From: an uncultured Alphaproteobacteria bacterium
Lineage (GTDB): Bacteria > Pseudomonadota > Alphaproteobacteria > Rs-D84
Length of the DNA stretch: 64,000 bases
Assembly (NCBI GenBank): GCA_944392775.1
Contig: CALXXV010000003.1
Coordinates: forward strand, 61,279-125,278
Direction of reading: 5' to 3'
Shown here: in pieces, positions 4,611 to 64,000 of the stretch
How positions within the stretch are numbered: the stretch's first letter is position 1
How the letters are laid out: each line of letters begins with the position of its first letter
The notes under the pieces: model-generated
Database searches by the model: none
Told to the model about the DNA's origin: nothing
What the model saw: the letters and a program-made list of their open reading frames with translations, nothing else
Program-made: the position numbers and the translations under genes

Positions 4611-4699
4611 TCCTTCTTTTCGCAACAAGATTAGCACTTATATTTGTTTTTATCAAGCTCCAAAAACGCAACATATTTTGTGAAACTCTTGCATGTTAA

Positions 4700-23327: not shown

Positions 23328-23349
23328 ATACTGTATTATTTTACACAAA

Positions 23350-24228
23350 TCACATATTTTGCAAGTGCAAAAGAACTTGTTCGGACACCAAACGGACGCA
23401 ATCAGGTATTATGCCATTACCAAGTTGTTTTCTTATTCGTGACGACGATAAATCTTCGGGGAATACAAACGTATCCGGCAACCCCATTACTTTTTTCGTT
23501 TCCGATAGTGTTATTTCATGTTCAATGCCATCAACCAAATAAGACATCCAATTATAAGGTTCTTTATATCTTTTATGGTTATGCGCCGTTAATATCGTAT
23601 ATCCAACATCTCTATTACAAGTTTTGCAATTAAAAACATCATGCATAGTAAATTTTAATGGTACGGGGTCTGGAAACCTAAACGTACTGGTTTCCTGATT
23701 TTCACCCAGAAACCCAACCATAAAGACCCGTTGTCTTATTTGCGGTATGCCACAATCACAACCTTTGATTACTTTATAATGAAACGAATAACCGGCGTTT
23801 CTAAACAAGTCGTGAATTATGCGAAAACTTCTGCCTCCTTCTGCCGTCAGCAATCCTTTTACATTTTCTAAAATAAACGCTTTTGGCATGCATTGTTTTA
23901 TTATATTCAAGACATAAAAGAACATATTACCTTTATCGTCTTTGTCGTCTTTCAGACCTTTACGAAGTCCAGCCATAGAAAACGACTGGCACGGCGGACT
24001 GCCGACCAAGATATCAAATTCGGGAATATCACTTGGATTAAGCTCACGAATATCCGTTGGATAATTATTATTTCTAACGCAAGGCAGGTCTGGAAAGTTT
24101 GCAAGAAAGGTCTGACGGGCATATTTATCAATTTCGCACGATAAAACATTTTCCATTGGCAAGTCTTGCAGTCCCAGTTCCCAGCCACCGATACCAGAAA
24201 ACAAGTTTATATATTTATATTTTTGCAT
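23350..24228 (-). CDS. DNA (cytosine-5)-methyltransferase (orphan; no cognate REase evident)
   Basis: INLFSGIGGWELG, GSPPCQSFSMAG, ENVKGL. Start adjusted to MQKYKY with RBS AAGGAG. Confidence 0.8.
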   Translation of the reverse strand: MQKYKYINLFSGIGGWELGLQDLPMENVLSCEIDKYARQTFLANFPDLPCVRNNNYPTDIRELNPSDIPEFDILVGSPPCQSFSMAGLRKGLKDDKDDKGNMFFYVLNIIKQCMPKAFILENVKGLLTAEGGRSFRIIHDLFRNAGYSFHYKVIKGCDCGIPQIRQRVFMVGFLGENQETSTFRFPDPVPLKFTMHDVFNCKTCNRDVGYTILTAHNHKRYKEPYNWMSYLVDGIEHEITLSETKKVMGLPDTFVFPEDLSSSRIRKQLGNGIIPDCVRLVSEQVLLHLQNM

Positions 24229-24369
24229 GAAGGCTCCTTGAGAATAAAAAAGCCCGCTATAAAACGCAGGCAAAGAAAAAACGGGCGACAATGCCGTCCG
24301 TTTTATGCAAATCAGTATATCATATTTTTTATAAAAAATCAAACAAAAAACAAAAAACCGCAGAAGTCT

Positions 24370-29160: not shown

Positions 29161-29190
29161 AAAATCAACTATCAACTAAAGGATTTTATT

Positions 29191-29763
29191 ATGGCTCGCA
29201 TTTTACAAATTCGTCGTGGCACAACTGCTCAAAACAATAATTTTACAGGGCTTTCCGGTGAAATTACCTTCGATACAGATGCAAAAACAATTCGCGTTCA
29301 TGACGGTCAAACACTTGGTGGGTTTCCGCTTGCCCGCGCAGACGACACATCTTCTGCCAATGATACAAACTTTGATATAAATTCTGTTCCAGATGAATTC
29401 TGGACGGAATTATTCGCCAATTTTAATCTTGTGCCATTTAACGTATTAGAAAGCAGCCTTTTACCAGTTGTAAATAGCACTTTCTTGGATTACACTTTTA
29501 ACTGTGATCAAATCGCTAAAATCGTCCAGACATTTTTAGTATGTCAAACACCAGAAGCAGGTTATAGCATCAATGAAAAAGTCTCTTCCTTTGGAATAGC
29601 AGATAGGACAAACCCCATTCCAAACACATATTTAGAAGAAGATGGTTTACACGTAAGGCTACCAATAGATCAAAAATCTTTCTGGGTTAGCCACAAAGAA
29701 ACAGGCGCAACAACAAATATAACTAACGATAACTGGAAAATTTTATTCAGAGTTTACTGTTGA
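29191..29763 (+). CDS. Phage tail-fibre-like protein with an Mtd_N-type N-terminal domain. Paralog of 51814-52275
   Basis: MARILQIRRGTTAQNNNFTGLSGEITFDTDAKTIRVHDGQTLGG matches the conserved phage tail-fibre/Mtd N-terminal motif (QIRRGT..GE...DT.....DG.T.GG). Confidence 0.55.
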   Translation: MARILQIRRGTTAQNNNFTGLSGEITFDTDAKTIRVHDGQTLGGFPLARADDTSSANDTNFDINSVPDEFWTELFANFNLVPFNVLESSLLPVVNSTFLDYTFNCDQIAKIVQTFLVCQTPEAGYSINEKVSSFGIADRTNPIPNTYLEEDGLHVRLPIDQKSFWVSHKETGATTNITNDNWKILFRVYC

Positions 29764-51804: not shown

Positions 51805-51830
51805 CCCCGGTTTTTATGCACCGAAACATT
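51805..51830. terminator. Bidirectional terminator AAAAACCGGG-TAAC-CCCGGTTTTT
   Basis: Between convergent genes. Confidence 0.65.
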
Positions 51831-52275
51831 TATCTATGTACACGTTTGATACACCACTTCCTTTAATAACACTTCCCTTTTTTACCATAACATAAGTACT
51901 TTTATTTATATATGAAGAACCACTTTGTTCTGAAAAAACCAGAACATCATCAACATACAAAAAAAGATTTGAATTATTTTGTATAAATGTTGCAAAACAA
52001 TAACCATTATAGGGCATTGTATAAGGCAACGTTACTTGTTTTCTGCTAGAGGTATCAGGCATCAATAATTCCATTATGCAATCTTTTTGAACAGCTGATA
52101 GATTCGATAAATCTAAAATTTCGCTTTTCTTCGCTAATACTGTTCCCCCAACCGTTTCTCCGTCATGAACACGAAGGGTTTTGTTCGTAGTATCCATAGT
52201 AACTTCACCTATAACCCCAGTAAAATTTTCGTGTTCTACAGAAGTTCCCCTACGTATTTGTATTTGTCTGGACAT
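51814..52275 (-). CDS. Phage tail-fibre-like protein, Mtd_N-type N-terminal domain. Paralog of 29191-29763
   Basis: MSRQIQIRRGTSVEHENFTGVIGEVTMDTTNKTLRVHDGETVGG. Confidence 0.55.
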   Translation of the reverse strand: MSRQIQIRRGTSVEHENFTGVIGEVTMDTTNKTLRVHDGETVGGTVLAKKSEILDLSNLSAVQKDCIMELLMPDTSSRKQVTLPYTMPYNGYCFATFIQNNSNLFLYVDDVLVFSEQSGSSYINKSTYVMVKKGSVIKGSGVSNVYIDKCFGA

Positions 52276-52911: not shown

Positions 52912-52940
52912 TTAAATCCCGCATAAACGCGGGATTTTCT
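52912..52940. terminator. Terminator AAATCCCGC-ATAAAC-GCGGGATTTT (bidirectional)
   Basis: GC hairpin flanked by A/T runs. Confidence 0.6.
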
Positions 52941-53198
52941 TTATTTTATAACGGCGGTTTTTATTAAAGCGACATCATCTTTTATTCCGTCTAGTTTTAT
53001 TTGCAATTGTCCTATACCAGTTTCTAATATAGTTACTCGATTCTCTAATGTTGTTATTCTGTGATCTGCCCGTTCTAAATCTGCCAGTGAAGAATCTTGA
53101 CGAGCAACCCAATATATCATTCCAGCAACGAAAGCTATCAAAAACCAACTATCCCTTAAAAAATCTATGATGCTCGTCGCTCCTGGTTGCATGGACAT
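52941..53198 (-). CDS. Small single-TM protein with a coiled-coil tail (holin/spanin-like?), at the end of the phage module
   Basis: TM WFLIAFVAGMIYWV followed by heptad-like sequence. Confidence 0.35.
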   Translation of the reverse strand: MSMQPGATSIIDFLRDSWFLIAFVAGMIYWVARQDSSLADLERADHRITTLENRVTILETGIGQLQIKLDGIKDDVALIKTAVIK

Positions 53199-53389
53199 TA
53201 TTTTCCACGCTCTATCAGATTTTCAATCTGATGAACTAAGGCGCGTTGCGCCTCTAGGCCACGTAATTCTGAATCACTGGCATTTGGCCCAAGAACTCTT
53301 TCTATCGTTATTTTTCGCAGATGCGCCAATACCGCCATACCGGCAGCGGTAGAAAACGCTCTGACATAATTTTGTTCTATTTCTTTCAT
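53198..53389 (-). CDS. Small hypothetical phage-module protein
   Basis: ORF only. Confidence 0.3.
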   Translation of the reverse strand: MKEIEQNYVRAFSTAAGMAVLAHLRKITIERVLGPNASDSELRGLEAQRALVHQIENLIERGK

Positions 53390-53402
53390 TTTTTATTCCT
53401 TT

Positions 53403-54626
53403 TTATAATAATGTTTCTTCTAATGCCATTTTGGCAATCGGGGCAATATATTTTAATTCTGCATCACTATGCAAAGATATTTTATCTATCACACCTCGAC
53501 GTGACAAAATTTGTAAACCGCGTTCACATAACGGTCTTATAAATTCGTGCAATAATCTACCATATGTTGCCCCAAGAATTCTCATCATATCGGCATTACG
53601 CGCCATTATTTCGGTTGCGGTCATTTCTTTTTCTGACAGTAACCCTAATCTATCTGCTAATAACGCATGTCTTATTCTTTCACGCAAATCTTTTAAAACT
53701 ATCTGAGATACATCAAAATCCGCCCCAGAAGATAACGGCGTCAAACCCGAGCTTCCAACTGCTTTTGGAATTATTGCCCCCGGTGTTAAATTTATATTAG
53801 ATAAATTTATAACCCCATCATCATCAGCTTGCCAAATACCAGATACCGCTATTGTTGCATTCTTTAAAACTAGTTCTACTACTTTATTCGCTGTTTTTAT
53901 GTCAGGTAATGCACGCAATACGGGACCTCTTCCATAAAGTTCACCACTGGCAACAGACCAACGGAAAATTAAATACGGGTTAGTTTCGAAAGTCCCCTTG
54001 GATACAATGTTATTTTCTATTTCCCCACCAACGTCTAGCCATGCTGTAAATTCTGTACCAACTAGACTTTGAACCAATCTTAAAGGATAGTCTGGATCTT
54101 TTTTTATAACATCTCTTATATCTAATGGTGGGGTCCAAGACGGGTATTTTTCTATAACTTCTTTGGCCGGCATAGAGGTTGTATGAAATATAGCGTTGGG
54201 TAATATCGCAATATCTCTCATTGGAATCGCAGTAAATGAAAACGCAGAATCTGCACCGATTGGATTTTCAGCCATAAACAAACAGGCAGTTCCCAGAATT
54301 ACTAAATCAAGATAACATTGATGTATTGTCGTATAAAAGTTAGAATCATTTAAATTGGCACGTAATGCGTTTGTTGCATTTATTGCATTTGGAGACTCTT
54401 CACTTTCTGGAATCAAAGAAATCCATAAAGATTCAGGTGGCGTCAATAAAGAATACATCGATGCAGCTAGATTATCAACCGCATCGGCGGCAGTCGCGTC
54501 AAATAACATAGCAACTTCATCGTCTGCCGTAGGCATTGTATAACGTAGCGCGCTGTCCCATCTATTTAACCATGGAGCACGTAAATCGAGTGCTCTACGA
54601 TACATTTGTTGTAAATTATTTTGCAT
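53403..54626 (-). CDS. Putative phage portal (head-to-tail connector) protein
   Basis: About 400 aa, immediately downstream of the terminase nuclease half. Start adjusted to MQNNLQQMYRR. Confidence 0.45.
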   Translation of the reverse strand: MQNNLQQMYRRALDLRAPWLNRWDSALRYTMPTADDEVAMLFDATAADAVDNLAASMYSLLTPPESLWISLIPESEESPNAINATNALRANLNDSNFYTTIHQCYLDLVILGTACLFMAENPIGADSAFSFTAIPMRDIAILPNAIFHTTSMPAKEVIEKYPSWTPPLDIRDVIKKDPDYPLRLVQSLVGTEFTAWLDVGGEIENNIVSKGTFETNPYLIFRWSVASGELYGRGPVLRALPDIKTANKVVELVLKNATIAVSGIWQADDDGVINLSNINLTPGAIIPKAVGSSGLTPLSSGADFDVSQIVLKDLRERIRHALLADRLGLLSEKEMTATEIMARNADMMRILGATYGRLLHEFIRPLCERGLQILSRRGVIDKISLHSDAELKYIAPIAKMALEETLL

Positions 54627-54643
54627 TTTTGCTCCTTTTTTTA

Positions 54644-55507
54644 TTACAACGTAAAATCCGTATTTGCGGTAAAAGGTTTTATTATGTGTCCCTGCGGACG
54701 AACTGGCATTGGTAACGCACATATAGCACCTGCAACTGCATCTAAACCATCATCATGACCGGTATTGCCTATAGGTGACCACCCAAGCATTTCTGACAAT
54801 AAAGGAGTACTTTGAACGCGTCTATGTGCATGAAGACGCCCTGTGGTCAAGACAGGTTCAATAGAATCTAAGATTCTTGTTTCCTTTTTTTCATGATTTA
54901 GTATTTTTTGAACTTGTAAGCTTATACCACGACGTTGTGTTATATTTCTCATTATTTCTGGTAATGCATTACCCATACCATTTGTTTCTATATAAATTTT
55001 ATGCAATGAATATTTTGATAAGAAATCAAGAACCATTTCGCACTGACTTGCTAATGGATACATATCTTCATCTGATACCAATAAATATTTAACATCATGT
55101 ATAAAAAAATGTTTATTTTTATCATCCCTGTAAATCAAAACGCATACACTACCATCTGATTTTTTTCGTCCGGACGAAGGGTCCCAGTATGCAGTTACAC
55201 CAGTAATTAAAACATCACCTATCTTTGCCGTTCTGGAATCAAATTCACTTTCATATAAATGTAAAGAATCGGGATCTAATCTTGCCCTATCTGGAGCTAC
55301 AAATTGTAACATCATTTGAGCAGAAAAATATCGTGCCCCGACAACATTTCGTAATTCGTCTATTTTCTGCATAGAAAATACTTCGGGCCACGCAGGGTTT
55401 CCCATTTCATCAACTATAGGTATTTTTAATTCACGATAACCACGTAAAAAAGGCGTTGAAAAAACAAAATTTTTATATACTATATCTGACATGGACTTTA
55501 CTCCCAA
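54644..55507 (-). pseudogene. Large terminase subunit, C-terminal nuclease-domain fragment (second half of the split gene)
   Basis: RNase-H-like nuclease region with acidic residues. In-order continuation of the ATPase fragment at 58822-59472. Confidence 0.55.
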
Positions 55508-57044
55508 AACTTTGCCGACAAATCTAGAGGCCGAACAAGCGGTTTTGGCTGCAGTTCTTATGAATAACCGAGCATTAGAACGTGTTTCTGAATTTCTAAG
55601 GCCCGAACACTTTTCTCATCCAGCGCACCAAGAAATTTATAAGCTTGCAGAAAGACAATTCTCTGCGGGCGTACCTTTTGATATAATCACAGCAAAAAAT
55701 TATTTAGACCAACAAGGTGTTCTTGAATCTGTCGGGGGAATAGATTATCTAACCCAATTATCAAGCGCAGGTGCAACTGTTGTAAACGTTGAACAATATG
55801 GTCGAATAGTTTACGAAAACGCACTAAGACGTGATCTTATAAATCTTGGGCAATCAATTACAGATGCCGCTTTTGTCGAGGATCTTGATAATCCTGTATC
55901 TGCACAAATAGAAACTGCTGAACAAAAACTTTTTGAAATGGCGTCTGCCGGTGTTTCTGAACGTGAAGTTACTTCGATTGCAACAGCTTTGCAAGGGGCT
56001 TTACAAGAAGCAGAAATTGCATATAAAGCAGATGGCAAACTATCGGGTTTAACAACAGGGTTAACAGCTTTGGATAAATCAATAAGCGGGTTACACCATT
56101 CCGATTTAATAATCATTGCAGGACGTCCTGCAATGGGTAAAACAACATTAGCAATGAATATTGCTTTTAACGCTGCAAACGCAATTTTATATGGCAGGGC
56201 TAATGAAAAATATAAAGGTGCTGTCGCATTTTTTAGCTTAGAAATGTCTTCTTCTCAACTTGCTGCACGAGTACTATCTTCTCAATCAAAAATACCCGCA
56301 TCTGCCATGCGTGAAGGAAATCTAACAGATGAAGATTTTCTTAAAATGTCACAGTATTCCGCAGCGATCGGTCGTGTACCTTTATATATAGATGATACAC
56401 CGGGTATGTCCGTACCAATGATGAGAACACGCGCAAGACGTCTGGCTAGAAAATGCGGAGGAATCGCATTAATAGTAATTGACTATCTACAGCTTATGAC
56501 GTCACCCGGGGGTAAACGTAGCGATAACCGTGTACAAGAAATCTCTGAAATAACACGCGGTTTAAAAATGTTAGCAAAAGAACTAGACGTTCCTGTAATT
56601 GCCCTGTCACAATTGTCGCGTAGCGTAGAATCTCGCGATGATAAAAGGCCACAATTAGCGGATCTTCGTGAATCCGGATCTATTGAACAAGATGCTGACA
56701 TTGTCATGTTCGCTTACCGAGAAGAATATTATCTAGAAAACAGAGATCCTTCACAAAGAATTTCTGGTAATACAAACGATAAAATAATTGAAAGTTATCA
56801 AAAGCGTTTAGAACGTGCACGTGGCAAAGCAGATGTCATTATTGGCAAAAATCGACATGGACGTCCAGAAACAGTTCATTTAGCTTTCTTTGGTGATTAT
56901 AGTTTATTTGATAATCTAGACGAAATGGCAAATCGTATGAACGAAGAATTTATAAACACAAATACATCATTACAAACAGAGCTATCAACGTCAGATAATC
57001 AGATTATTAATGCAGACGAAATTCCAGACGATATGCCACTGTAA
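55491..57044 (+). CDS. dnaB: Replicative DNA helicase DnaB-family protein
   Basis: N-terminal domain LEAEQAVLAAVLMNN, Walker A GRPAMGKTTLAMN, SLEMS, QLSRSVE motifs. Confidence 0.8.
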   Translation: MDFTPKTLPTNLEAEQAVLAAVLMNNRALERVSEFLRPEHFSHPAHQEIYKLAERQFSAGVPFDIITAKNYLDQQGVLESVGGIDYLTQLSSAGATVVNVEQYGRIVYENALRRDLINLGQSITDAAFVEDLDNPVSAQIETAEQKLFEMASAGVSEREVTSIATALQGALQEAEIAYKADGKLSGLTTGLTALDKSISGLHHSDLIIIAGRPAMGKTTLAMNIAFNAANAILYGRANEKYKGAVAFFSLEMSSSQLAARVLSSQSKIPASAMREGNLTDEDFLKMSQYSAAIGRVPLYIDDTPGMSVPMMRTRARRLARKCGGIALIVIDYLQLMTSPGGKRSDNRVQEISEITRGLKMLAKELDVPVIALSQLSRSVESRDDKRPQLADLRESGSIEQDADIVMFAYREEYYLENRDPSQRISGNTNDKIIESYQKRLERARGKADVIIGKNRHGRPETVHLAFFGDYSLFDNLDEMANRMNEEFINTNTSLQTELSTSDNQIINADEIPDDMPL

Positions 57045-57114
57045 AATAATTTTATGCTTGCCAACCATATAAAAATTGACTAATATTTTGTCAAGAATCC
57101 AAGGAGTTTTTACT

Positions 57115-58122
57115 ATGGCGCAAGAAGAAATAATTTTCCCTAATAATATAAGAAACATCCGTCTAGCAAATGGGATGAAAATGACCGATCTGGCGCGTCA
57201 GGCAAACTTATCTTTATCAGCAGTTTCAAAAATTGAAAAGGGTGTACGCCGGTTAAATCAAAAACAGCTTTTAAACATTTGTAATATCCTTGGTTGTAAA
57301 TTATCTGACATATTCATCAAAGAATCTGATGAAGTCGCAAATAAATGGCAGGAAGAAATAAAACGCCGTATGAACGACAACGAAGACAGCGGATTAAAGA
57401 TATTCGGCAGTGGCCTTCGTAAAATTAGACAACAAGCCGGAAAAACAATTGCTCAGGCAGCAAAAGATGCCGGTATGACACTATCTGTTTATCATAAAAT
57501 AGAAGTAGGACAACGAGAAATATATCAAAATGAAATCGAACCATTAGCAAAATCTTTTGCGCTTAGCGTTGAAACTTTATTTGATAAAATTGCCAATCTG
57601 TATAAATCTGGCGAATTAAACAAACAAATAAATAAAGTTAAAGAACGCGTAAAATCTGTGTTGATTCCAGGTAACCCTTTGTCTGGTATTGATGTACACA
57701 GTAGCTTATATGGTGCAAAATTATACGATAGTGCCAGGAAAAAATTAGTTCCTGTGTTTGGTATGCCTTCTGGTAAATCAATTTCTTTCAAAAAGTCAGA
57801 CGAAACCATGATTGTAGCACCAATGCCTTTAGAAGGTAGAAAAGGCATATATGCAATTGTCCCTAATTCTAAACGTACAAATGGTTTTATTCCCGAAAAA
57901 TCTTATGTTTTTGCAGATGCGGACACGCCAGCAACAGTAGGCGATTTGGCTATATCAATTGATGCAGATTTTGAGTCAATGGATGCCGGTGATACAGCAA
58001 TTGCTAATATAGTTACCGTACGCCAAGATTCCAAAGGTAAAATTTACGGTCAAATATCTTCCCCAGAAGAAAAAATTATCGGCAAAACATTACATAAAGT
58101 AGTAATGATTGTAACGGAATAA
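57115..58122 (+). CDS. Tandem XRE-type HTH transcriptional regulator with a C-terminal CI/LexA-like (possible degenerate S24) domain
   Basis: Two HTH_XRE-like segments, then ...DFESMDAGDTAI...KGK. Start at MAQEE with RBS AAGGAG. Confidence 0.5.
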   Translation: MAQEEIIFPNNIRNIRLANGMKMTDLARQANLSLSAVSKIEKGVRRLNQKQLLNICNILGCKLSDIFIKESDEVANKWQEEIKRRMNDNEDSGLKIFGSGLRKIRQQAGKTIAQAAKDAGMTLSVYHKIEVGQREIYQNEIEPLAKSFALSVETLFDKIANLYKSGELNKQINKVKERVKSVLIPGNPLSGIDVHSSLYGAKLYDSARKKLVPVFGMPSGKSISFKKSDETMIVAPMPLEGRKGIYAIVPNSKRTNGFIPEKSYVFADADTPATVGDLAISIDADFESMDAGDTAIANIVTVRQDSKGKIYGQISSPEEKIIGKTLHKVVMIVTE

Positions 58123-58144
58123 ACCCATTAAATCGGAGGGAAAA

Positions 58145-58825
58145 ATGAAAACAAAAATCAATACAACAGCGCAAAAGTTATTAAACTTATACCGTCAAGA
58201 ACATGTTATATTCGGCGGTTGGGCTGCTGTGAACGAAGTTTTCATAAACGAAGCCACACCAGAAGTATTAAAAGCCTTAAAAGAACTTCCCACAGGTAAA
58301 AATTTAGTTCATCACATAGAAAACCTACGTAGCGGGAAAACCCCTATGAATACCATTGAACGTGAGTTATTGCCTTATGGTGGTATGATGGCAGAAACGA
58401 TCGCAACCATACCTTTAACACAATCAGAATGGGAAGAATTGCAAAATGGTATAAACAATTTCACTCCGGATGAAGACGGGTTGAACAGGTTACAACAATT
58501 ATCCGTAATAAAAAAATTCGGTGACCAATGGTTAGTTGCTATACGTTCTGCAATATCAGAAAAACCAGATCTTATGGAAAAGTGGTCTATTATTACAAAA
58601 ACATATCGAGCATATTATTTGTGGAAAGTTGCTAGTGATATGTTAAATCAACCGCTGTCAGAACGTGCACGTGCTCAATTACAAGCAGATATGCCAGAAT
58701 ATGAAACATACCTGCCCATGTTCGGGGAAGCAGGCGTTGCATTATTAGAAAAATTACGTTCTTTCATTACTACGATGAAACCCTTAGATACAGATAACGC
58801 ACCAGATACTCCAACATCTATTTAA
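58145..58825 (+). CDS. Hypothetical protein
   Basis: ORF with RBS GGAGGG. Confidence 0.4.
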   Translation: MKTKINTTAQKLLNLYRQEHVIFGGWAAVNEVFINEATPEVLKALKELPTGKNLVHHIENLRSGKTPMNTIERELLPYGGMMAETIATIPLTQSEWEELQNGINNFTPDEDGLNRLQQLSVIKKFGDQWLVAIRSAISEKPDLMEKWSIITKTYRAYYLWKVASDMLNQPLSERARAQLQADMPEYETYLPMFGEAGVALLEKLRSFITTMKPLDTDNAPDTPTSI

Positions 58826-59472
58826 TCATCTTCTTGCGTTCTATAAATTGTATCCATTGTATGTGGCGTACCAATATAGATCATGGCCCCTGAAGGAGAA
58901 AGAATAAAATCTAATTCTCTCAGTTTTTCTCGTAAACTATCTCTCTTTTGGGCTGTATTACAAGTATTCGGGACCTCTACATCATCACAAATTATTAAAT
59001 CCGCCCGCATGCCTGTTATATTTCCATGAACACCTTGGCATATAACCGAAGGTTCCCTAATACCTATAGGCCGATTTACTGTAATCCTACCTTGCGCCCA
59101 TTCTTTTTTTGTTTGTGGAATCAAGTTGGAACATTTCGGATGATTTTCCAACACATGTCTTATATGAGAAACCATTCTTGAAGCCAAACCACTTTCAGCA
59201 GAAAGTATCAATATTCTAGTTTCTGGTCTAAGATATAATACGCATGCAGCAAATATACCAACAACAGTTGACTTTCCAGAATGTCTGAAAGACATCAAAA
59301 GCCCACGTTTTGGTTCAGTTGTCCAAACAGATACAAGAAAATCCATTATTGTTTTATGATGCAAAGGTGTAGAAAAGCCTAATAATTCATTCCATTCATC
59401 TAAAAAATTATAAAATTCCGTAATCATCACGAGTTTCATTCGGTGCAAGCTCGGTAATACTGCCATAATCAT
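58822..59472 (-). pseudogene. Large terminase subunit, N-terminal ATPase-domain fragment (first half of the split gene)
   Basis: Walker A FRHSGKST, Walker B LIICDDVE, motif III-like IGTPHT. Confidence 0.55.
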
Positions 59473-59956
59473 TTATAAGCTTCGGTAATGCATTTTCTAG
59501 AACAGAGACTAGATTGTTATATAATCCTAAAACACTTCCCCCAGAAAGTTTATCTTCTATTACCTGCAAATTATACTGCAAAAAAGCCATTACATTATCA
59601 TGGGTATTTTGCCATTCCGAAATATTTATATCTATTGAATGTAAATCACGAAAAGCTTCTAATAAAAAATTAAAATCAGCATTTAAACTTTCAGGATCTA
59701 TCTTAGATGTTGGTTGATAATCAACAACTCTATTTAAAGAGATCTGACGAAAGATATCTATTTTTACTCCTTGACTTGGAGCCTCTATGAAAACGACATT
59801 TCCTCCATCAAAATTTTCATTTGCAACAACAGAATAGTTTGAATTTTGTAAAATTTCTTCGTCCAAAGCCACTTTAATATCTTCATCCTGAAAGAACGGA
59901 AAAGCAAATAGGAATTCAGTAGTTACACCATCTCCTATATAAGATATTTTATACAT
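59408..59956 (-). CDS. Tail-fibre N-terminal (tail-attachment) domain protein, T7 gp17 N-terminus-like, lacking a distal receptor-binding region
   Basis: YKISYIGDGVTTEFLFAFPFFQDEDIKV resembles the T7 gp17 N-terminus (YQLDGSNRDFNIPFEYLARKFVVV). Confidence 0.4.
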   Translation of the reverse strand: MYKISYIGDGVTTEFLFAFPFFQDEDIKVALDEEILQNSNYSVVANENFDGGNVVFIEAPSQGVKIDIFRQISLNRVVDYQPTSKIDPESLNADFNFLLEAFRDLHSIDINISEWQNTHDNVMAFLQYNLQVIEDKLSGGSVLGLYNNLVSVLENALPKLINDYGSITELAPNETRDDYGIL

Positions 59957-59973
59957 AAGTCCCCCCTATTAAT

Positions 59974-60321
59974 TTAATCAATCAAATCTTCGAATTTGTC
60001 TAAGACAGATTGCAATAAATTTGGTTTGCTGACTTTTATTTTTTTTAATTTCTCTGAATTAACCTTACGTTTCGTTTCATATGGTTCTTCTACCTCTGAT
60101 TTAAGTCTTTTTAATACAGCACCTTCTGTCATTCCGCGTCCCGACATACCTGATGCACCATATTTAGCACGTTGGGTTGCTAAAGTTTTTTTTACAAGAT
60201 TAGTTTTTTCTTTTTCGTCTGCTGCCATATCTGCGATAATTTTTTGTCGCTCTGTTTCTGCTTCTTTTTTTGCATTTTTATAATTTAAAACATCTGTTAC
60301 ATCTGACACTAACTGTCCCAT
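59974..60321 (-). CDS. Hypothetical phage-module protein (basic, coiled-coil)
   Basis: ORF only. Confidence 0.3.
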   Translation of the reverse strand: MGQLVSDVTDVLNYKNAKKEAETERQKIIADMAADEKEKTNLVKKTLATQRAKYGASGMSGRGMTEGAVLKRLKSEVEEPYETKRKVNSEKLKKIKVSKPNLLQSVLDKFEDLID

Positions 60322-60338
60322 TTTTAGCTCCTTTTAGT

Positions 60339-62054
60339 TTATACTAAATAATAACCATACATACTTACTGATAAAACAGTAGCTGGCAATTGTTCGCTGC
60401 TTTTTATAGACCATGGCGCATCAATACAATTACGTTGGCACCCTAATAAATTCACACAAACATCACCGCTATAACCATTTGATGTTTCATCATATATATC
60501 ATTTGGTAAATCTGTTCTTGCCCCATTTATAAATAAAGTTTTTGTATCCAAAACGCGTGCACATATTTTCCGCAATCTTATCTTATTAGCATTATGCCCA
60601 GATGCCCTAACAGGTAACGCAGATGCAGTAAAGGAAAAACCGTATTTACCGGCATCCTGTAAAGCGTCATTTGAAAATTTTTCAATAGAATATTCATCTT
60701 GTCTTAAAACTACTACAAACGTTTCTCCGTCTATTACTGCGACAGATATAAACTTACCCTGCGTTTTATAAGTACCCCACGCAGAAATACCCAGTGCAGA
60801 ATTTTGATTTAATACGGCCATATCTCCCGATTCCATAATAACGAACAACTGTCTTGTTAAATCGTTATAGGCTAAATCAACAGGATCTTTCATAAGGTGT
60901 TTGGATAAAGCACACAAATCTGTTGCATTATAATTTTCGCCTAACTGATCTAAACTTAATTCTCGAATATCTTTTTTACTGCCGGAAATAAAAACAGTTG
61001 CCCCTTCTATTTTTTGTGGTGGCAAATAACGTCCTACTACACTTCCGACAGAAGTATGTTGTTTTATATCTACTGCTGCAGGTGTTAAAGGTTTACTAGA
61101 AATTGCCCATTCCCCAGCAGAAGTCAGGATTTGTAAATTATCACTGCTGACGACAGTACATATCTGCTGTCGTTGCTCTGAAAGTAGTGTTATAAAAATT
61201 GCTTCATCATCTAAACCTGTACCGACATCAAAATTATTATGCTTTCCTACTTTTGACATCCATACACCACTTGGCCAAGATCTAGAGCCACCAAAAACCA
61301 GTCTATCTTGATGAAACGTTATACTACACGGCCATCCGCGACGAGTACTAAAAGCTGCTTCAAACCAATCAGAAACAGGTTCATCAGGAACTGTATATGA
61401 AGAATTTACATGTGCGGTAACAGTTTTTGAATCTATATATTCAGTAATAGTCCATTGCTTATTTAATAATAAAAATCGACCATCTACATCTTCTGGAACC
61501 CAATAATTTTTATCTGTTTTAAATGTTGCAAAGTTATTTCCAGAACTATTCGTTGTTACAGTAATTTTTATACCTTCTGAGTCATCAAACCTCATGAATG
61601 GTATATTCACACTCATATCATCATCGTTTCTAGAAAAATCGAACTGAGATAGATCAAATGAATCATCAACTTTTTTTAATATATAAGGTCTATAATCAGG
61701 GTGTACAAAAATCATCGTTCCGAACCGTTGGGCATATTGTAACTTTGATAGATCACTACTTTCCCACGGAGCAATCATACTTTTTATAATTTCCCCATTA
61801 GAAAATATTGACAACTGCTCGTCAGTTAATGCGATAAGATAACTTTCATTTTCACTTACAGAAAACGATATCAATCTTGCAGAAGTATCAATATCTGCAA
61901 TTTTAACCAATCCAGGTCGTCTCGATAATCCGCCACCAGCCAATACATACATATTTTCTAACTTTGAAAGACCATTTAAATTATCCCGCGCAAAAAATTC
62001 TTGTGAGACTTCCCCGTCTGCAAAAGAATTTTGCGTTTTTATAAAATCTCCCAT
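60339..62054 (-). CDS. Large phage structural protein (tail tubular protein B-like by size and position)
   Basis: 571 aa; lies between the putative gp11-like protein and the fibre gene in T7-like order. Confidence 0.35.
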   Translation of the reverse strand: MGDFIKTQNSFADGEVSQEFFARDNLNGLSKLENMYVLAGGGLSRRPGLVKIADIDTSARLISFSVSENESYLIALTDEQLSIFSNGEIIKSMIAPWESSDLSKLQYAQRFGTMIFVHPDYRPYILKKVDDSFDLSQFDFSRNDDDMSVNIPFMRFDDSEGIKITVTTNSSGNNFATFKTDKNYWVPEDVDGRFLLLNKQWTITEYIDSKTVTAHVNSSYTVPDEPVSDWFEAAFSTRRGWPCSITFHQDRLVFGGSRSWPSGVWMSKVGKHNNFDVGTGLDDEAIFITLLSEQRQQICTVVSSDNLQILTSAGEWAISSKPLTPAAVDIKQHTSVGSVVGRYLPPQKIEGATVFISGSKKDIRELSLDQLGENYNATDLCALSKHLMKDPVDLAYNDLTRQLFVIMESGDMAVLNQNSALGISAWGTYKTQGKFISVAVIDGETFVVVLRQDEYSIEKFSNDALQDAGKYGFSFTASALPVRASGHNANKIRLRKICARVLDTKTLFINGARTDLPNDIYDETSNGYSGDVCVNLLGCQRNCIDAPWSIKSSEQLPATVLSVSMYGYYLV

Positions 62055-62069
62055 ATTTATTCTCCTGAA

Positions 62070-62588
62070 TTAAAAACGTGCATTGATTAAAGAGAAATTT
62101 TCAATATCCTGACTTACAGAAGTCGTACTATCTATAAATTTTGCAGATTGCATTTCAGTTTCATATAAAGCCGCCAACATACGAAAAACATTCTGTTCAC
62201 CGATTAAAGGTATACAAAATTCCATAGCCAATTTAGTAGCTGCTAAAGAAACAAAATAACTTGGAAATTTTTCTACAGGCACACGAACAATCGCTAATAC
62301 AGACGTTGTTTCTGCAGAAGAAATAATTTTATCTCCGACGATGTTACCGTCACATTTTAAAATTCGCAAACAATCGGCAGGAATCAAGAATTCACCGTCA
62401 GCGTTTTTGGTTAAATCAAAAGACTTACAAGCAAAACGCCAAGGATGTGAAGATAGCAAAGTATCTACCACCGGATCAAATAAAGTTCTACTAAGTTGCG
62501 CGGCCGGTGTATCATCTAATAAAGACTGAATGGATTTTTCACCAAGTTTTAACAACGCCATAGAACATAAATCTATTTTTGTAAGCAT
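62070..62588 (-). CDS. Phage structural protein (tail tubular protein A / adaptor-like by position)
   Basis: Position and size only. Confidence 0.3.
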   Translation of the reverse strand: MLTKIDLCSMALLKLGEKSIQSLLDDTPAAQLSRTLFDPVVDTLLSSHPWRFACKSFDLTKNADGEFLIPADCLRILKCDGNIVGDKIISSAETTSVLAIVRVPVEKFPSYFVSLAATKLAMEFCIPLIGEQNVFRMLAALYETEMQSAKFIDSTTSVSQDIENFSLINARF

Positions 62589-62663
62589 ATTATGTCCTTT
62601 ATAATTTAAATGAAAAAATTTGAGGCGACCTTTAAAAAGTCGCCTCTTTATATATCTATTCTA

Positions 62664-62891
62664 CTAAGCTACACTACCAATCGTCACATTTGTAGATACT
62701 GTAATTTTCTTTATCGATGTATTATCAGATGCATTGATTATGACAAGATCTCCTGTATTCATCAATGTTTTAACGCCGTCAAAATAACCTGATGCAGTTA
62801 TTGTTGATAGTGTTTCATTTGCTGCATAATGCCATAATGTAAAACCGTTTGCATATGCAATTACGGATAAATTTTTATTCTGAAAAGCCAT
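62664..62891 (-). CDS. Small hypothetical phage-module protein
   Basis: ORF only. Confidence 0.25.
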   Translation of the reverse strand: MAFQNKNLSVIAYANGFTLWHYAANETLSTITASGYFDGVKTLMNTGDLVIINASDNTSIKKITVSTNVTIGSVA

Positions 62892-62917
62892 TTCTTAATT
62901 CCTTTCATTATCAAATG

Positions 62918-63748
62918 TTAAACAGTTTCATCACTATCAGAACACTTCAAGCGAACAATACCGTCATTATCAATAAGTACTGCACCTTGAGACATACTGT
63001 TGCTTATAAAATGCGCTGCCCTTTCACCGTGCCAAGAAATATCTGTTTTTACTTCCTGACCGCATGCATGCCCCAGACTGGTCGAGTGATATATAAAACA
63101 ATCGCGTTTTTCTTCTGTAACAGGTAGGTTATTATGCAAAATCCATGTAATACCCAACCATTTTTTTGATGCGCCACCTGATACTAAAGGTAAATCGTTA
63201 CCGACATAATCTGCAGATATAAATTCATCGATTGATAATAATTCATTCCATTGATGCACCCCAACAACAGCAAATCTTCGTCCATCATCTGGAACATCTT
63301 TATTATTTAGTTCTTCTACTGCAGCTAATATTAAATCTTTAGTTAATCCTGTGCTATAATCGCCAACATAATTATTAGCGCTATTCATCGCGGCAATTAT
63401 TAATTCGTCCGTTTTACGACCTAATGCATATGCACCAGCAGATGCAACGACGCGACGTTCATCAACATTAGTCTTTAATTCATCCAAGGCATCAACCCAA
63501 TCACCTGCATAATAATCTTGCAACAAACACTCTACAGGTTCATGATTTAAATTCATTACCGGTACAATACCATGACGAGATTTTGTACTTGCTGTACCGC
63601 GGCCTACTTTTTGAAAAGTCGTAGAAGCACCAACGACACCAGACTTACTACGAACGGTCGCCCTTAATTTTGTGCCCATTTGCTGATAAGCTAAATGAAC
63701 ATCTGCTTCGAATTGTTTCACGAAGACTTGATCTATGGAAACAGACAT
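62918..63748 (-). CDS. Putative phage major capsid/structural protein
   Basis: First gene of the co-oriented structural module. Preceded by terminator-rich intergenic DNA. Confidence 0.35.
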   Translation of the reverse strand: MSVSIDQVFVKQFEADVHLAYQQMGTKLRATVRSKSGVVGASTTFQKVGRGTASTKSRHGIVPVMNLNHEPVECLLQDYYAGDWVDALDELKTNVDERRVVASAGAYALGRKTDELIIAAMNSANNYVGDYSTGLTKDLILAAVEELNNKDVPDDGRRFAVVGVHQWNELLSIDEFISADYVGNDLPLVSGGASKKWLGITWILHNNLPVTEEKRDCFIYHSTSLGHACGQEVKTDISWHGERAAHFISNSMSQGAVLIDNDGIVRLKCSDSDETV

Positions 63749-63964
63749 GTATTTTTCCTTTATATTATTAAATAAAAAAACGCATTAAAATGCGCCGATT
63801 TAAATTTTGTTTTATGGTTATGCAAAAAATTGCGCCGTATAACAAAACGATCAAGGTCCGACAATATTTGGATTATCTTGAAAATTCTTAGTTAGACATT
63901 TATATCTAACTAAAAATTTTATTAAAAAAACCGCATAACGCGGAAACATTATTATATTAATAAA

Positions 63965-63995
63965 AATCCCCGCTAAGCAGGGATTTTTATTATTT
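63965..63995. terminator. Hairpin AATCCCCGC-TAAGCA-GGGATTTTTATT (terminator)
   Basis: GC stem plus T-tract. Confidence 0.5.
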
Positions 63996-64000
63996 TCTTT

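What the first reader, a model, noticed from the sequence alone, without database searches (positions are those of the whole stretch)
52941..63748. Degenerate T7-like structural module with a truncated tail fibre and no obvious scaffold, core or small-terminase genes
Co-oriented minus-strand genes run capsid-like, small, gp11-like, gp12-like (571 aa), small, fibre-N-terminal-domain (182 aa), TerL (split), portal, two small proteins (one holin-like). The fibre gene has only the T7 gp17-like tail-attachment N-terminus. Two stand-alone tail-fibre-tip-like (Mtd_N-type) genes are elsewhere in the window. The module is flanked by strong terminators and multiple hairpins (63750-64000). This fits a cryptic prophage or a domesticated particle-producing module.
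Basis: inference. Interest (0 to 1): 0.55.

Follow-up and report, generated by a model that had tools for sequence, protein, structure and literature searches.

The report
Domesticated phage particle module enclosing dnaB
This is not a decaying prophage: it is a compact short-tailed-phage particle gene set that small-genome gut Alphaproteobacteria (Candidatus Enterousia) have inherited vertically under strong selection, with the cell's replicative helicase gene nested inside a cleanly split DNA-packaging motor gene, which is the genomic signature of a gene-transfer-agent-like element of a kind not yet described.

Summary
The gene run is real: capsid, 75-aa protein, tail adaptor, tail nozzle, 115-aa protein, fibre-anchor, TerL in two pieces, portal, Bbp19-like and an 85-aa membrane protein. 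"No scaffold" is a window-edge artefact. In contigs from the same strain, endolysin, holin-like, scaffold and histone-H1-like genes lie just beyond base 64000, followed by host genes and no integrase. TerL is split by a 3.3-kb opposite-strand operon: dnaB (passes the NCBIfam replicative-helicase equivalogs and fails the phage-DnaB model), a double-HTH regulator and an unknown 226-aa protein. The host is Candidatus Enterousia (order Rs-D84, genomes under 1 Mb). All 80 species-level genomes examined share the same gene order, the same split and the same chromosomal site. Capsid is more conserved than DnaB, and dN/dS is 0.06-0.19. The two TerL halves are colinear with an intact TerL of a related 13-kb module in Acetobacteraceae, and all ATPase and nuclease motifs are kept. 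I read it as a domesticated podovirus-derived, GTA-like particle system. Domestication is well supported. DNA transfer is inferred. Small terminase and ejection proteins are absent, and the fibre anchor is lost in a quarter of species. A covarying two-hairpin leader precedes the capsid gene.

The parts
63749..63896 (-). Structured leader upstream of the capsid gene. It holds two conserved hairpins: P1 (xGG-AYAA-UCC...GGA-CCx) and P2 (YGG-C-GCR...YGC-AUAA-CCR). A terminator-like hairpin plus T-run follows (63796-63779), then the RBS AAAGGA. Further upstream, at 63990-63931, are two terminator-like hairpins that close the preceding histone-H1-like gene.
   Evidence: In alignment A4 of 37 species, 96.9% of cells are paired against 85.3% in shuffles. 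There are 64 double-change cells against 15.8 expected, and slid controls give at most 45% pairing. Covariance model R1 finds exactly one copy per Enterousia locus, always before the capsid gene. No Rfam family reaches its threshold.
62918..63748 (-). Major capsid protein, 276 aa.
   Evidence: PF19821 at 1.8e-71 and phrog_3437 at 7.7e-73. Mean pairwise amino-acid distance among species is 0.12 and dN/dS is 0.065.
62664..62891 (-). Conserved 75-aa virion-module protein of unknown role (possibly head decoration or head-tail joining), followed by a strong terminator at 62646-62622.
   Evidence: phrog_18004 at 8e-13. dN/dS is 0.062. Terminator.
62070..62588 (-). Tail tubular protein A / adaptor (gp11-like), 172 aa.
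   Evidence: phrog_394 at 2.9e-33.
60339..62054 (-). Tail tubular protein B / nozzle (gp12-like), 571 aa.
   Evidence: phrog_376 at 8e-85. PDB 8ck1 'Tail Nozzle' at 3.7e-30.
59974..60321 (-). 115-aa Lys/Glu-rich protein in the position of the T7 internal proteins. It is homologous to the 146-aa protein of the Acetobacteraceae module.
   Evidence: phmmer at 1.6e-7 against L174 p146. No match in any family library.
59408..59956 (-). Fibre-anchor protein, 182 aa: a T7 gp17 N-terminal-like domain with no distal part.
   Evidence: phrog_1640 at 4.8e-17. PF03906 scores 20.4 bits, below its cut-off. The gene is cleanly absent in 19 of about 76 loci.
58822..59427 (-). TerL-N: the ATPase core of the large terminase as a separate 201-aa polypeptide (the ORF is open up to 59472).
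   Evidence: phrog_38 positions 270-459 at 6.8e-41. It aligns to T7 gp19 residues 36-215. Walker A FRHSGKST, Walker B DLIICDDVE and GTPHT are invariant in 26 diverse homologues, all about 200 aa long.
58145..58825 (+). p226: a conserved all-helical protein of unknown function, last gene of the dnaB operon. Its stop codon overlaps the TerL-N stop in the sequence TTAA.
57076..58122 (+). XRE-family regulator with two HTH domains and a C-terminal domain of about 150 aa.
   Evidence: PF01381 at 3.9e-20, two stretches. dN/dS is 0.079.
55491..57044 (+). Replicative DNA helicase DnaB. Its ATG overlaps the TerL-C ATG in the sequence CATG.
   Evidence: NF006606 scores 616 bits against a cut-off of 540, and TIGR00665 scores 509 against 385. 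The phage_DnaB model TIGR03600 scores 408 against 499, so it fails. The nearest relatives outside the clade are alphaproteobacterial replicative helicases at 45-51% identity. Junction sequence.
54644..55492 (-). TerL-C: the rest of the ATPase domain plus the RNase-H-like nuclease, 282 aa, with its own Shine-Dalgarno GGGAG.
   Evidence: phrog_38 positions 468-704 at 5e-37, PF22530 at 4.3e-9. Colinear with intact TerL. WDPS, ETNG and DDGLDA are conserved in 71 species. SD.
53403..54626 (-). Portal protein, 407 aa (the ORF is open up to 54722).
   Evidence: PF12236 at 7e-78. In other species, stop codons lie in the upstream extension.
53198..53389 (-). Bbp19-like small protein, 63 aa.
   Evidence: PF25181 at 3.7e-10.
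52941..53198 (-). 85-aa protein with an N-terminal hydrophobic segment and a coiled coil. A bidirectional terminator follows at 52914-52937.
   Evidence: Sequence read. phrog_736 at 1.2e-4. Terminator.
51814..52275 (-). Stand-alone Mtd_N-domain protein, 153 aa, a candidate distal receptor-binding protein.
   Evidence: PF18454 at 5.3e-14. In 18 other species an Mtd_N gene follows p85 directly. This happens only in genomes that also keep the fibre anchor.
29188..29763 (+). Second stand-alone Mtd_N-domain protein, about 191 aa, 23 kb from the module.
   Evidence: PF18454 at 4.8e-14.

Best explanation
The region is the larger part of a chromosomal module of about 14 kb, derived from a podovirus. 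Candidatus Enterousia (order Rs-D84, Alphaproteobacteria) has inherited it vertically and keeps it under purifying selection.

Full gene order: endolysin, holin-like, scaffold, histone-H1-like, [structured leader], capsid, p75, adaptor, nozzle, p115, fibre anchor, TerL-N, <dnaB-xre-p226 on the opposite strand>, TerL-C, portal, Bbp19-like, p85, and in some species an Mtd_N gene.

Shown here:
- The module is complete for head assembly, DNA packaging, a short tail and lysis.
- The locus has no integrase and no phage-type replication or lysogeny genes.
- The module sits at the same chromosomal site and co-diverges with the host.
- Its terminase gene underwent an ancient fission into two polypeptides with nothing lost.

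Inferred mechanism:
1. In a subpopulation, expression is released. The capsid leader with its terminators points to attenuation or anti-termination, and the XRE regulator is the candidate switch.
2. Scaffold, capsid and portal build procapsids.
3. A TerL-N/TerL-C complex packages DNA without a specificity-giving small terminase, so it packages host DNA by the headful.
4. The adaptor and nozzle close the head.
5. The fibre anchor, where present, carries separately encoded Mtd_N receptor-binding proteins.
6. Holin and endolysin release the particles.

This makes it a gene-transfer-agent-like system. Because ejection (core) proteins are absent, entry of DNA into a recipient's cytoplasm would need the recipient's own uptake functions, as it does for RcGTA.

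The head-to-head and tail-to-tail overlaps with the dnaB operon mean that transcription of the late genes through TerL-N runs antisense to dnaB. This could couple particle production to a shut-down of replication (speculative).

My probabilities: domesticated and functional, about 0.9. Particles that package DNA, about 0.7. Transfer of host DNA between cells, about 0.5. The confidence given for this explanation (0.6) is for the whole statement, including the GTA-like function.
For: Gene identities.

Completeness beyond the window and host flanks without an integrase: strain-identical contigs L001-L003 carry PF05396 scaffold, then LipB, tRNA U5 methyltransferase, LpxI and PriA.

Distribution:
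- TerL-N has 874 homologues. The best 120 are all stand-alone proteins of 199-225 aa at 72-100% identity.
- All 80 of the best loci from species-representative genomes are Enterousia or Alphaproteobacteria gut MAGs, including a circular 958,618-bp genome.
- Every locus long enough shows the identical order p155-LipB-p136-p73-scaffold-capsid-...-TerLN-(p226, XRE, DnaB reversed)-TerLC-portal-Bbp19-p85.
- The insert is 3.28-3.35 kb in all of them.

Selection:
- Mean pairwise amino-acid distance is 0.12 for capsid, 0.145 for DnaB, 0.18 for portal, 0.20 for TerL-N and 0.287 for LipB.
- dN/dS is 0.065 for capsid, 0.073 for portal, 0.098 for TerL-N, 0.16 for TerL-C and 0.18 for adaptor and nozzle, against 0.059 for DnaB and 0.117 for LipB.
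- In the closest genome pairs, the dS of module genes (0.07-0.5) matches the dS of host genes, with dN/dS of 0.00-0.14.
- Pairwise distances of module genes and host genes correlate at r = 0.4-0.8. The two host genes LipB and DnaB correlate at 0.64.

Split TerL:
- It is colinear with the intact 480-aa TerL of the Acetobacteraceae relatives. The break falls in a variable loop, about 12 residues are added and none are lost.
- ATPase motifs are invariant.
- Nuclease motifs are conserved in 71 species.
- TerL-C has its own SD.

dnaB is of the chromosomal type.

The host has a reduced genome of under 1 Mb, where useless DNA is not expected to persist (PMC12306168).

Precedents:
- Internal terminators bypassed by anti-termination in the Caulobacter GTA cluster (PMC11150451).
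- A TerS lacking an obvious DNA-binding domain, and accessory loci encoded elsewhere, in GTAs (PMC12946183).
Against: - No experimental data exist. All genomes are MAGs, and particles, packaged DNA and transfer have not been observed.
- No small terminase and no ejection or core proteins were found. The particles might therefore not deliver DNA.
- The fibre anchor is absent in about a quarter of species. Adsorption by fibres is thus not universally needed, or it is supplied in some other way.
- Reduced genomes keep their gene order generally, so synteny alone is weak evidence. The case rests on the selection measures.
- dS is saturated for most species pairs, so most dN/dS values are rough.
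- The AF2 model of the intact relative has low confidence at residues 154-262. The structural setting of the split is therefore unresolved.
- I could not test whether this dnaB is the only copy in the genome.
Confidence: 0.6

Rival explanations
1. A cryptic, decaying prophage remnant without function. The split TerL, the short fibre and the missing genes would then be lesions.
For: TerL lies in two pieces with foreign genes between them. There is no TerS, no core proteins and no integrase. The fibre gene holds only the N-terminal domain.
Against: - ORFs are intact and the architecture is identical in all 80 species-level genomes examined.
- dN/dS is 0.06-0.19, and the capsid is more conserved than DnaB.
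- The TerL split loses no residues and all catalytic motifs are kept.
- The host genomes are under 1 Mb and lack pseudogene accumulation (PMC12306168).
Confidence: 0.03
2. An active mobile element: an inducible prophage, or a satellite that uses a helper phage, which spreads among Enterousia species and so looks conserved.
For: Several fragments are classed as viral in IMG/VR. The capsid and scaffold genes show somewhat lower synonymous divergence than the host genes (median pS 0.56-0.63 against 0.70-0.71).
Against: - The locus has no integrase, excisionase, phage replication gene or att context, and the host flanks on the upstream side are the same in all species.
- In the closest genome pairs, module dS equals host dS, and distances co-vary with host genes.
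- An essential-type dnaB sits inside it.
- The lower pS of capsid and scaffold can be explained by codon selection in highly expressed genes, as reported for GTA genes (title and abstract of PMC9765227).
Confidence: 0.05
3. A domesticated particle with a function other than gene transfer. Candidates are a lysis or public-goods release programme, a killing particle, or a device for interacting with the partner cells on which these reduced-genome bacteria are thought to depend.
For: There are no ejection proteins and no TerS, and the fibre anchor is dispensable in a quarter of species. The hosts are predicted to be obligate symbionts or parasites of other cells (PMC12306168). The receptor-binding Mtd_N proteins are variable.
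Against: Both halves of the packaging ATPase-nuclease and the portal are among the most constrained genes. This argues that DNA packaging itself is selected. No toxin or effector gene is present in the locus.
Confidence: 0.22
4. Only individual genes are co-opted for cellular roles. For example, the TerL halves would act with DnaB in chromosome metabolism, and the rest would be carried along.
For: The TerL halves and dnaB are tightly interleaved, with overlapping start and stop codons that are conserved across species.
Against: Capsid, portal, scaffold, adaptor, nozzle, endolysin and the holin-like gene are all under purifying selection too, and the capsid is the most conserved of all. Related modules in Acetobacteraceae keep the same gene set without dnaB nearby.
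Confidence: 0.04

Closest known systems
Alphaproteobacterial gene transfer agents (RcGTA, CcGTA; viriforms)
   Same: A chromosomal cluster of about 14 kb holding head, packaging, tail and lysis genes. No replication or integration genes. Vertical inheritance under purifying selection. Receptor-binding genes encoded elsewhere. Internal terminators (anti-termination control in CcGTA, PMC11150451). No sequence-specific small terminase.
   Different: RcGTA-type particles are HK97-like siphovirus derivatives. This module has podovirus/T7-type architecture: PF12236 portal, PF05396 scaffold, gp11/gp12-like tail and a T7-type TerL ATPase. TerL is split, and dnaB lies inside the cluster. Function has not been demonstrated.
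FpGTA of Faecalibacterium prausnitzii (PMC12946183, 2026)
   Same: A gut bacterium. A compact operon with TerL, portal, scaffold, capsid and short-tail genes. A second locus for receptor-binding and lysis genes. No replication genes.
   Different: The host phylum differs (Bacillota). FpGTA has experimental evidence (packaged host DNA, proteomics), a candidate TerS and an undivided TerL. That paper calls FpGTA the first podovirus-like GTA-like element, so the present lineage is not described there. I did not test sequence homology to FpGTA.
BaGTA plus run-off replication region of Bartonella (PMC2697382)
   Same: An alphaproteobacterium with a host-associated lifestyle. A conserved phage-derived cluster physically associated with a helicase gene.
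   Different: The Bartonella helicase is phage-type (Twinkle-like) and marks a phage-derived origin. Here the helicase passes the chromosomal DnaB equivalogs and fails the phage model. BaGTA is not T7-like, and no amplification evidence exists here.
T7-like and HTVC010P-type podophages (closest isolated phages: Pelagibacter phage EXVC031P Hodr, HTVC010P)
   Same: The order portal-(Bbp19-like)-scaffold-capsid-small protein-adaptor-nozzle. Capsid 45% and portal 34% identical to Hodr. TerL ATPase 34% identical to T7-type maturases.
   Different: The phages have 34-42 kb genomes with replication genes, internal and ejection proteins, full fibres and an undivided TerL. Here the portal block lies after TerL, TerL is split, and the element is fixed in the chromosome.
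13-kb module of Acetobacteraceae found here (Roseomonas, Roseicella, Belnapia, Muricoccus, Paracraurococcus; loci L121, L174-L176)
   Same: A homologous capsid (57-64%), portal, scaffold, adaptor, nozzle, p115/p146, TerL (about 48%) and Hydrolase_2 endolysin. No integrase or replication genes. TerL is 70-88% identical across genera. Muricoccus and Paracraurococcus share the downstream host genes.
   Different: TerL is intact (about 480 aa) and preceded by a 106-114-aa ORF, a candidate TerS. It has a full tailspike of about 770 aa, the T7 gene order (portal first, TerL last) and no dnaB nearby. As far as my literature searches reach, it is undescribed.
Bordetella phage BPP-1 (Bbp19, Mtd)
   Same: A Bbp19-like protein after the portal. 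Mtd_N domains at the N-termini of the candidate receptor-binding proteins.
   Different: No reverse transcriptase and no template/variable repeat system were seen in the window. The Mtd_N proteins are short (153 and about 191 aa).

Membership tests
Gene transfer agent (viriform) | Phage-derived structural, packaging and lysis gene cluster encoded in the cellular chromosome | tested here: met
Gene transfer agent (viriform) | No genes for autonomous replication, integration or lysogeny in the cluster | tested here: met
   The locus and its flanks (window plus L001) show no integrase, excisionase or phage replication gene. The embedded dnaB is of the chromosomal type.
Gene transfer agent (viriform) | Vertical inheritance with the host lineage under purifying selection | tested here: met
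   Same site and same order in 80 species-level genomes. dN/dS is 0.06-0.19. Module dS matches host dS in close pairs.
Gene transfer agent (viriform) | Particles package host DNA more or less at random, in pieces shorter than the encoding locus | not testable with these tools
   Needs sequencing of nuclease-protected particle DNA.
Gene transfer agent (viriform) | Delivery of packaged DNA to recipient cells | not testable with these tools
   No cultured representative exists. The absence of ejection proteins leaves this open.
T7-like (Autographiviridae-type) virion module | PF12236 portal, PF05396 scaffold, tail tubular proteins A and B, gp17-type fibre N-terminus, T7-type TerL | tested here: met
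   The fibre domain is supported only by the PHROG match, because the Pfam score is below its cut-off.
T7-like (Autographiviridae-type) virion module | Internal core / ejection proteins (gp14, gp15, gp16) and small terminase (gp18) | tested here: not met
   Only a 115-aa protein lies between the nozzle and the fibre anchor. No ORF matches a TerS family.
T7-like (Autographiviridae-type) virion module | Single-subunit RNA polymerase and phage DNA-metabolism genes | tested here: not met
   Absent from the locus and from the 64-kb window. The rest of the genome was not examined.
Cryptic (decaying) prophage | Pseudogenes, relaxed selection, patchy distribution, variable insertion site | tested here: not met
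Integrated functional prophage | Integrase and att sites, lysogeny switch, own replication module | tested here: not met
   Host genes abut the module on the upstream side in all species, and no integrase is present.
Replicative DNA helicase DnaB (chromosomal) | Scores above the curated cut-offs of the NCBIfam equivalogs and below that of the phage exception model | tested here: met
   NF006606 616 against 540. TIGR00665 509 against 385. TIGR03600 408 against 499.
Replicative DNA helicase DnaB (chromosomal) | The only dnaB of the genome | not tested
There is no paralogue in the 64-kb window.
Diversity-generating retroelement (BPP-1 type) | Reverse transcriptase plus template/variable repeats next to the Mtd gene | tested here: not met
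   No RT domain was found among the window ORFs scanned. I did not search specifically for repeats.

The most novel reading that the evidence does not exclude
Alphaproteobacteria harbour an old, undescribed family of podovirus-derived gene transfer agents, with an intact form in Acetobacteraceae and a rearranged form in Rs-D84. In the reduced-genome Enterousia lineage, the packaging motor works as a two-polypeptide terminase. Its genes are transcriptionally interlocked with the essential dnaB operon through overlapping divergent starts and convergent stops. Switching on particle production then necessarily interferes with helicase supply and commits the producer cell. A dedicated leader RNA gates capsid synthesis.
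Probability: 0.2. Interest if true: 0.85.

Novelty: new variant of a known kind. Interest (0 to 1): 0.72.

Why it matters
Known GTAs are few. The well-studied ones (RcGTA, CcGTA) are siphovirus-like, and a 2026 paper calls a Faecalibacterium element the first podovirus-like one.

This module would add a large, gut-associated alphaproteobacterial lineage: more than 1,000 protein clusters for its private gene p226. It has T7-type architecture.

It would also give a natural example of a large terminase that works, or at least is maintained, as two polypeptides split inside the ATPase domain. And it would show that bacteria with genomes under 1 Mb spend about 1.5% of their DNA on a particle system. 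That bears on how asexual, reduced-genome symbionts escape mutational decay.

The nested dnaB operon and the covarying capsid leader are directly testable regulatory hypotheses. The related Acetobacteraceae module is found in cultured, named species, which makes experiments feasible.

Tried and rejected
1. Split-intein or intron explanation for the split TerL. Rejected. TerL-N ends 5 residues after the conserved DTIYRT, and TerL-C starts about 12 residues before FLRGYR. There is no intein-sized extension, and Rfam finds no group I or II intron.

2. Excisable intervening element restoring TerL (skin-like). Rejected. There is no recombinase, the insert carries dnaB, and the stop and start codons are conserved in all species.

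3. Sigma-54 promoter reading of TGGCGCA-N5-TTGCAT before the capsid gene. Set aside. The spacer varies from 5 to 13 nt among species, and both arms covary as a hairpin.

4. Rfam search of the leader. Only sub-threshold terminator-like hits.

6. Structure of the intact TerL relative, to place the split. The model has low confidence at residues 154-262, so it is uninformative for that purpose.

7. Structure prediction with alignments built from loci.

8. PDB sequence search with TerL-C. No hit.

9. Looking for the leader motif elsewhere, to define a regulon. There is one copy per locus only.

10. Homology of p85 to the Acetobacteraceae p110, and of p73 to their small pre-portal protein. Not detectable.

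11. Literature searches for a described GTA in Rs-D84/Enterousia, in Acetobacteraceae, or for a split terminase. Nothing relevant.

12. The count '488 relatives in species genomes' cannot be taken as 488 Enterousia species. One search pattern (DLIICDDV) also occurs in the Acetobacteraceae TerL. Only the 80 best loci were inspected.

Full report
**What is in the window.**
The window is a low-GC (about 34%) stretch of bacterial chromosome. It carries tRNAs, housekeeping genes, polysaccharide-synthesis genes and restriction-modification genes.

Every identification holds against profile libraries:
- capsid: PF19821 at 1.8e-71
- a 75-aa protein: phrog_18004
- tail adaptor: phrog_394
- tail nozzle: phrog_376, and PDB 8ck1 'Tail Nozzle' at 3.7e-30
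- a 115-aa protein
- a 182-aa protein that has only the T7 gp17-type N-terminal domain: phrog_1640 at 4.8e-17, with the Pfam score below its cut-off
- the large terminase in two pieces
- portal: PF12236 at 7e-78
- a Bbp19-like protein
- an 85-aa protein with a membrane segment and a coiled coil

The two stand-alone Mtd_N genes (51814-52275 and 29188-29763) and the terminators are also real.

The window ends 250 bases upstream of the capsid gene. Thirteen metagenome contigs encode the identical capsid and continue beyond that point. They carry, in order:
- a histone-H1-like Lys/Ala/Pro-repeat gene
- a PF05396 scaffold gene
- a 73-aa protein with two hydrophobic segments and a basic tail (holin-like, judged by inspection)
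- a 136-aa protein homologous to Hydrolase_2 endolysins (phmmer at 1e-13)

Then come the host genes LipB, a tRNA methyltransferase, LpxI and PriA. "No scaffold" is therefore a window-edge artefact, and there is no integrase beyond the edge. A small terminase and T7-type internal core proteins are absent from the whole locus.

**What splits TerL.**
Between the terminase pieces lies a 3.3-kb plus-strand operon with three genes.
- dnaB, 55491-57044.
- A regulator with two HTH domains.
- A 226-aa protein without relatives outside this clade.

The DnaB passes the curated NCBIfam equivalogs for the chromosomal replicative helicase (NF006606 616 bits against 540; TIGR00665 509 against 385). It fails the phage-DnaB model (408 against 499). 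Outside its own clade, its nearest relatives are alphaproteobacterial replicative helicases at 45-51% identity.

The junctions are extremely tight.
- The dnaB ATG and the TerL-C ATG overlap in the sequence CATG.
- TerL-C has its own GGGAG Shine-Dalgarno.
- The TerL-N and p226 stop codons overlap in TTAA.

**Whose genome, and how widespread.**
TerL-N has 874 homologues. The best 120 are all stand-alone proteins of about 200 aa at 72-100% identity.

A scan of species-representative genomes returned 80 loci. All come from gut MAGs named Candidatus Enterousia or Alphaproteobacteria, from chicken, deer, yak, sheep, rabbit and other animals. One is a circular 958,618-bp genome. Enterousia (order Rs-D84) has genomes of 0.75-1.0 Mb and is thought to depend on partner cells. 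The paper describing this does not mention phage genes (PMC12306168).

In every locus long enough, the order is identical: p155-LipB-endolysin-p73-scaffold-capsid-p75-adaptor-nozzle-p115-(fibre anchor)-TerLN-(p226, XRE, DnaB reversed)-TerLC-portal-Bbp19-p85. The insert measures 3.28-3.35 kb everywhere, and the 4-nt stop-stop overlap is kept in most loci.

**Selection.**
- *Conservation.* Among these species the capsid is the most conserved protein of the region. Mean pairwise distances are 0.12 for capsid, 0.145 for DnaB, 0.18 for portal, 0.20 for TerL-N, 0.287 for LipB and 0.457 for p155.
- *dN/dS.* Nei-Gojobori values are 0.065 (capsid), 0.062 (p75), 0.073 (portal), 0.098 (TerL-N), 0.16 (TerL-C) and 0.18-0.19 (adaptor, nozzle, scaffold). 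DnaB gives 0.059 and LipB 0.117. Most pairs are saturated at synonymous sites.
- *Close pairs.* In the closest pairs dS is 0.07-0.5. There the module genes have the same dS as host genes and a dN/dS of 0.00-0.14.
- *Co-divergence.* Pairwise distances of module and host genes correlate at r = 0.4-0.8, as well as the two host genes correlate with each other.

This is vertical inheritance under purifying selection. It is not decay, and it is not recent spread.

**The split terminase.**
TerL-N carries invariant Walker A (FRHSGKST), Walker B with the catalytic Glu (DLIICDDVE) and GTPHT motifs. It aligns to T7 gp19 residues 36-215.

TerL-N and TerL-C placed end to end are colinear with an intact 480-aa TerL from related elements. 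The break lies in a variable loop, after DTIYR and before FLRGYR. About 12 residues are added and none are lost. The acidic nuclease motifs (WDPS, ETNG, DDGLDA) are conserved in 71 species.

The fission is thus inside the ATPase domain, ancient and tolerated. I infer that the two chains reassemble. An AF2 model of the intact relative was too uncertain at residues 154-262 to show the structural setting. No intein, intron or recombinase accounts for the split.

**Relatives.**
- *Isolated phages.* The closest are HTVC010P-type pelagiphages (capsid 45%, portal 34%) and, for the ATPase, T7-type maturases (34%).
- *Canonical gene order.* A 5-kb human-faecal contig (capsid 62%) and the pelagiphages have the order portal-scaffold-capsid-adaptor-nozzle.
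- *IMG/VR set (capsid 57-64%, GC 66-75%).* The contigs that reach past the fibre gene carry an undivided TerL last, after a full tailspike of about 770 aa.
- *Acetobacteraceae.* This set belongs to Roseomonas, Roseicella, Belnapia, Muricoccus, Paracraurococcus and others. Its TerL is 70-88% identical across genera. The 13-kb module has no integrase or replication genes and ends with a holin-like gene and a Hydrolase_2 endolysin. In two genera it is followed by the same host genes.
- *A deeper lineage (L107, GC 51%).* It also has TerL split around dnaB, but with different companion genes.

The Enterousia form is therefore a rearranged member of a wider, apparently undescribed family of compact podovirus-derived chromosomal modules in Alphaproteobacteria.

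**Fibres.**
The fibre-anchor gene is cleanly missing in 19 of about 76 loci. An Mtd_N gene follows p85 directly in 18 of about 43 genomes that keep the anchor, and in none of the 18 that lack it. Only the first 55-60 residues of these Mtd_N proteins are conserved. This fits an anchor plus exchangeable receptor-binding proteins, as in phages with adaptor proteins (my own knowledge). It also shows that the fibre system is dispensable in part of the clade.

**Regulatory features.**
- *Hairpins and terminators.* Three terminator-like hairpins precede the capsid gene, a strong one follows p75, and a bidirectional one follows p85.
- *The leader.* Between the upstream terminators and the capsid RBS lies a leader of about 100 nt with two hairpins, which covary across 37 species. 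Pairing is 96.9% against 85.3% in shuffles, and 64 cells show double changes against 15.8 expected. Slid controls reach at most 45% pairing.
- *Copy number.* A covariance model finds one copy per locus and none elsewhere. No Rfam family matches.
- *Precedent.* Anti-termination is known to control the Caulobacter GTA cluster (PMC11150451). Whether this leader acts in attenuation or anti-termination is inference.
- *Antisense transcription.* TerL-N converges on p226 with no room for a terminator, so transcription of the late genes must run antisense into the dnaB operon. Mutual interference between particle production and helicase expression is plausible but untested.

**Interpretation.**
The well-supported conclusion is that this is a domesticated, vertically inherited particle module. 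The most likely function is GTA-like, for four reasons:
1. All parts for procapsid assembly, DNA packaging, a short tail and lysis are kept under selection.
2. The element cannot replicate or move by itself.
3. No specificity-conferring small terminase is present.
4. Receptor-binding genes are scattered.

Against a complete GTA cycle stand the lack of ejection proteins, the loss of the fibre anchor in some species and the absence of any experimental observation. A particle with another role remains a serious rival.

**Literature.**
Full-text searches found no description of such an element in Rs-D84 or Acetobacteraceae. A 2026 paper presents the Faecalibacterium element FpGTA as the first podovirus-like GTA-like element (PMC12946183). 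I therefore rate this a new variant of a known kind, of considerable interest.

Noticed in passing
window 63749-63896 (minus strand); the same place in L011-L090: A covarying two-hairpin leader (P1 xGG-AYAA-UCC...GGA-CCx; P2 YGG-C-GCR...YGC-AUAA-CCR) lies directly upstream of the capsid gene. In most species a terminator-like hairpin follows it. There is one copy per locus, and no Rfam family matches. Part of it mimics a sigma-54 promoter, but the spacer length varies.
   Followed up: yes
L001 9297-9776 (just beyond the window end; only the last ~10 nt fall at window 63990-64000): A histone-H1-like Lys/Ala/Pro-repeat protein gene (MAFTFLKPAAKKPAAKK..., 85-175 aa) lies between the scaffold and capsid genes in 60 of 61 species. 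It may be a DNA-condensing head component. Its repeats break assemblies, as the N-run in L001 shows.
   Followed up: partly
L121, L174, L175, L176 (Acetobacteraceae: Roseicella, Roseomonas, Muricoccus, Paracraurococcus): A related 13-kb module with an intact TerL, a full tailspike, a candidate TerS and a lysis cassette, and with no integrase or replication genes. TerL is 70-88% identical across genera, and two genera share the downstream host genes. It looks GTA-like, and it occurs in cultured bacteria.
   Followed up: partly
L107 (IMGVR_UViG_2820136564_000001, GC 51%): A deeper lineage in which TerL is also split around dnaB. The insert is about 4.6 kb and holds an 834-aa ORF of unknown function instead of XRE and p226. 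No portal was detected in the part of the contig that was fetched.
   Followed up: partly
window 55490-55493 and 58822-58825: Palindromic gene junctions. The divergent start codons of dnaB and TerL-C share CATG. The convergent stop codons of p226 and TerL-N share TTAA. A promoter-like TTGAAA-16-TACTAT ends 7 nt before the dnaB ATG, which suggests a leaderless dnaB mRNA.
   Followed up: partly
L011-L090, between p115 and TerL-N, and downstream of p85: The fibre-anchor gene is absent in about a quarter of species. An Mtd_N gene directly after p85 occurs only in species that keep the anchor (18 of about 43, against 0 of 18).
   Followed up: yes
L093 (MT838907.1, human faecal 'Bacteriophage sp.' scaffold, 5084 bp): A relative with 62% capsid identity and the canonical order portal-scaffold-capsid-p75-adaptor-nozzle. 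It may come from a free phage or from another host lineage.
   Followed up: partly
window 517-4637 and 22305-24342: Two restriction-modification-type clusters. The first holds an HNH protein, a Dcm methylase and an Eco57I-like methylase. The second holds a PLD-family nuclease and a second Dcm methylase next to tRNA-Lys.
   Followed up: no
L037 and L052 (both from MAG JAZTWT01, SGB_6541): One MAG carries two non-identical copies of the module on different contigs. This is more likely a bin that mixes two strains than a true duplication.
   Followed up: no
window 26652-29090: An 812-aa ORF with no Pfam match lies immediately upstream of the second Mtd_N gene. I did not test whether it belongs to the particle system.
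   Followed up: no
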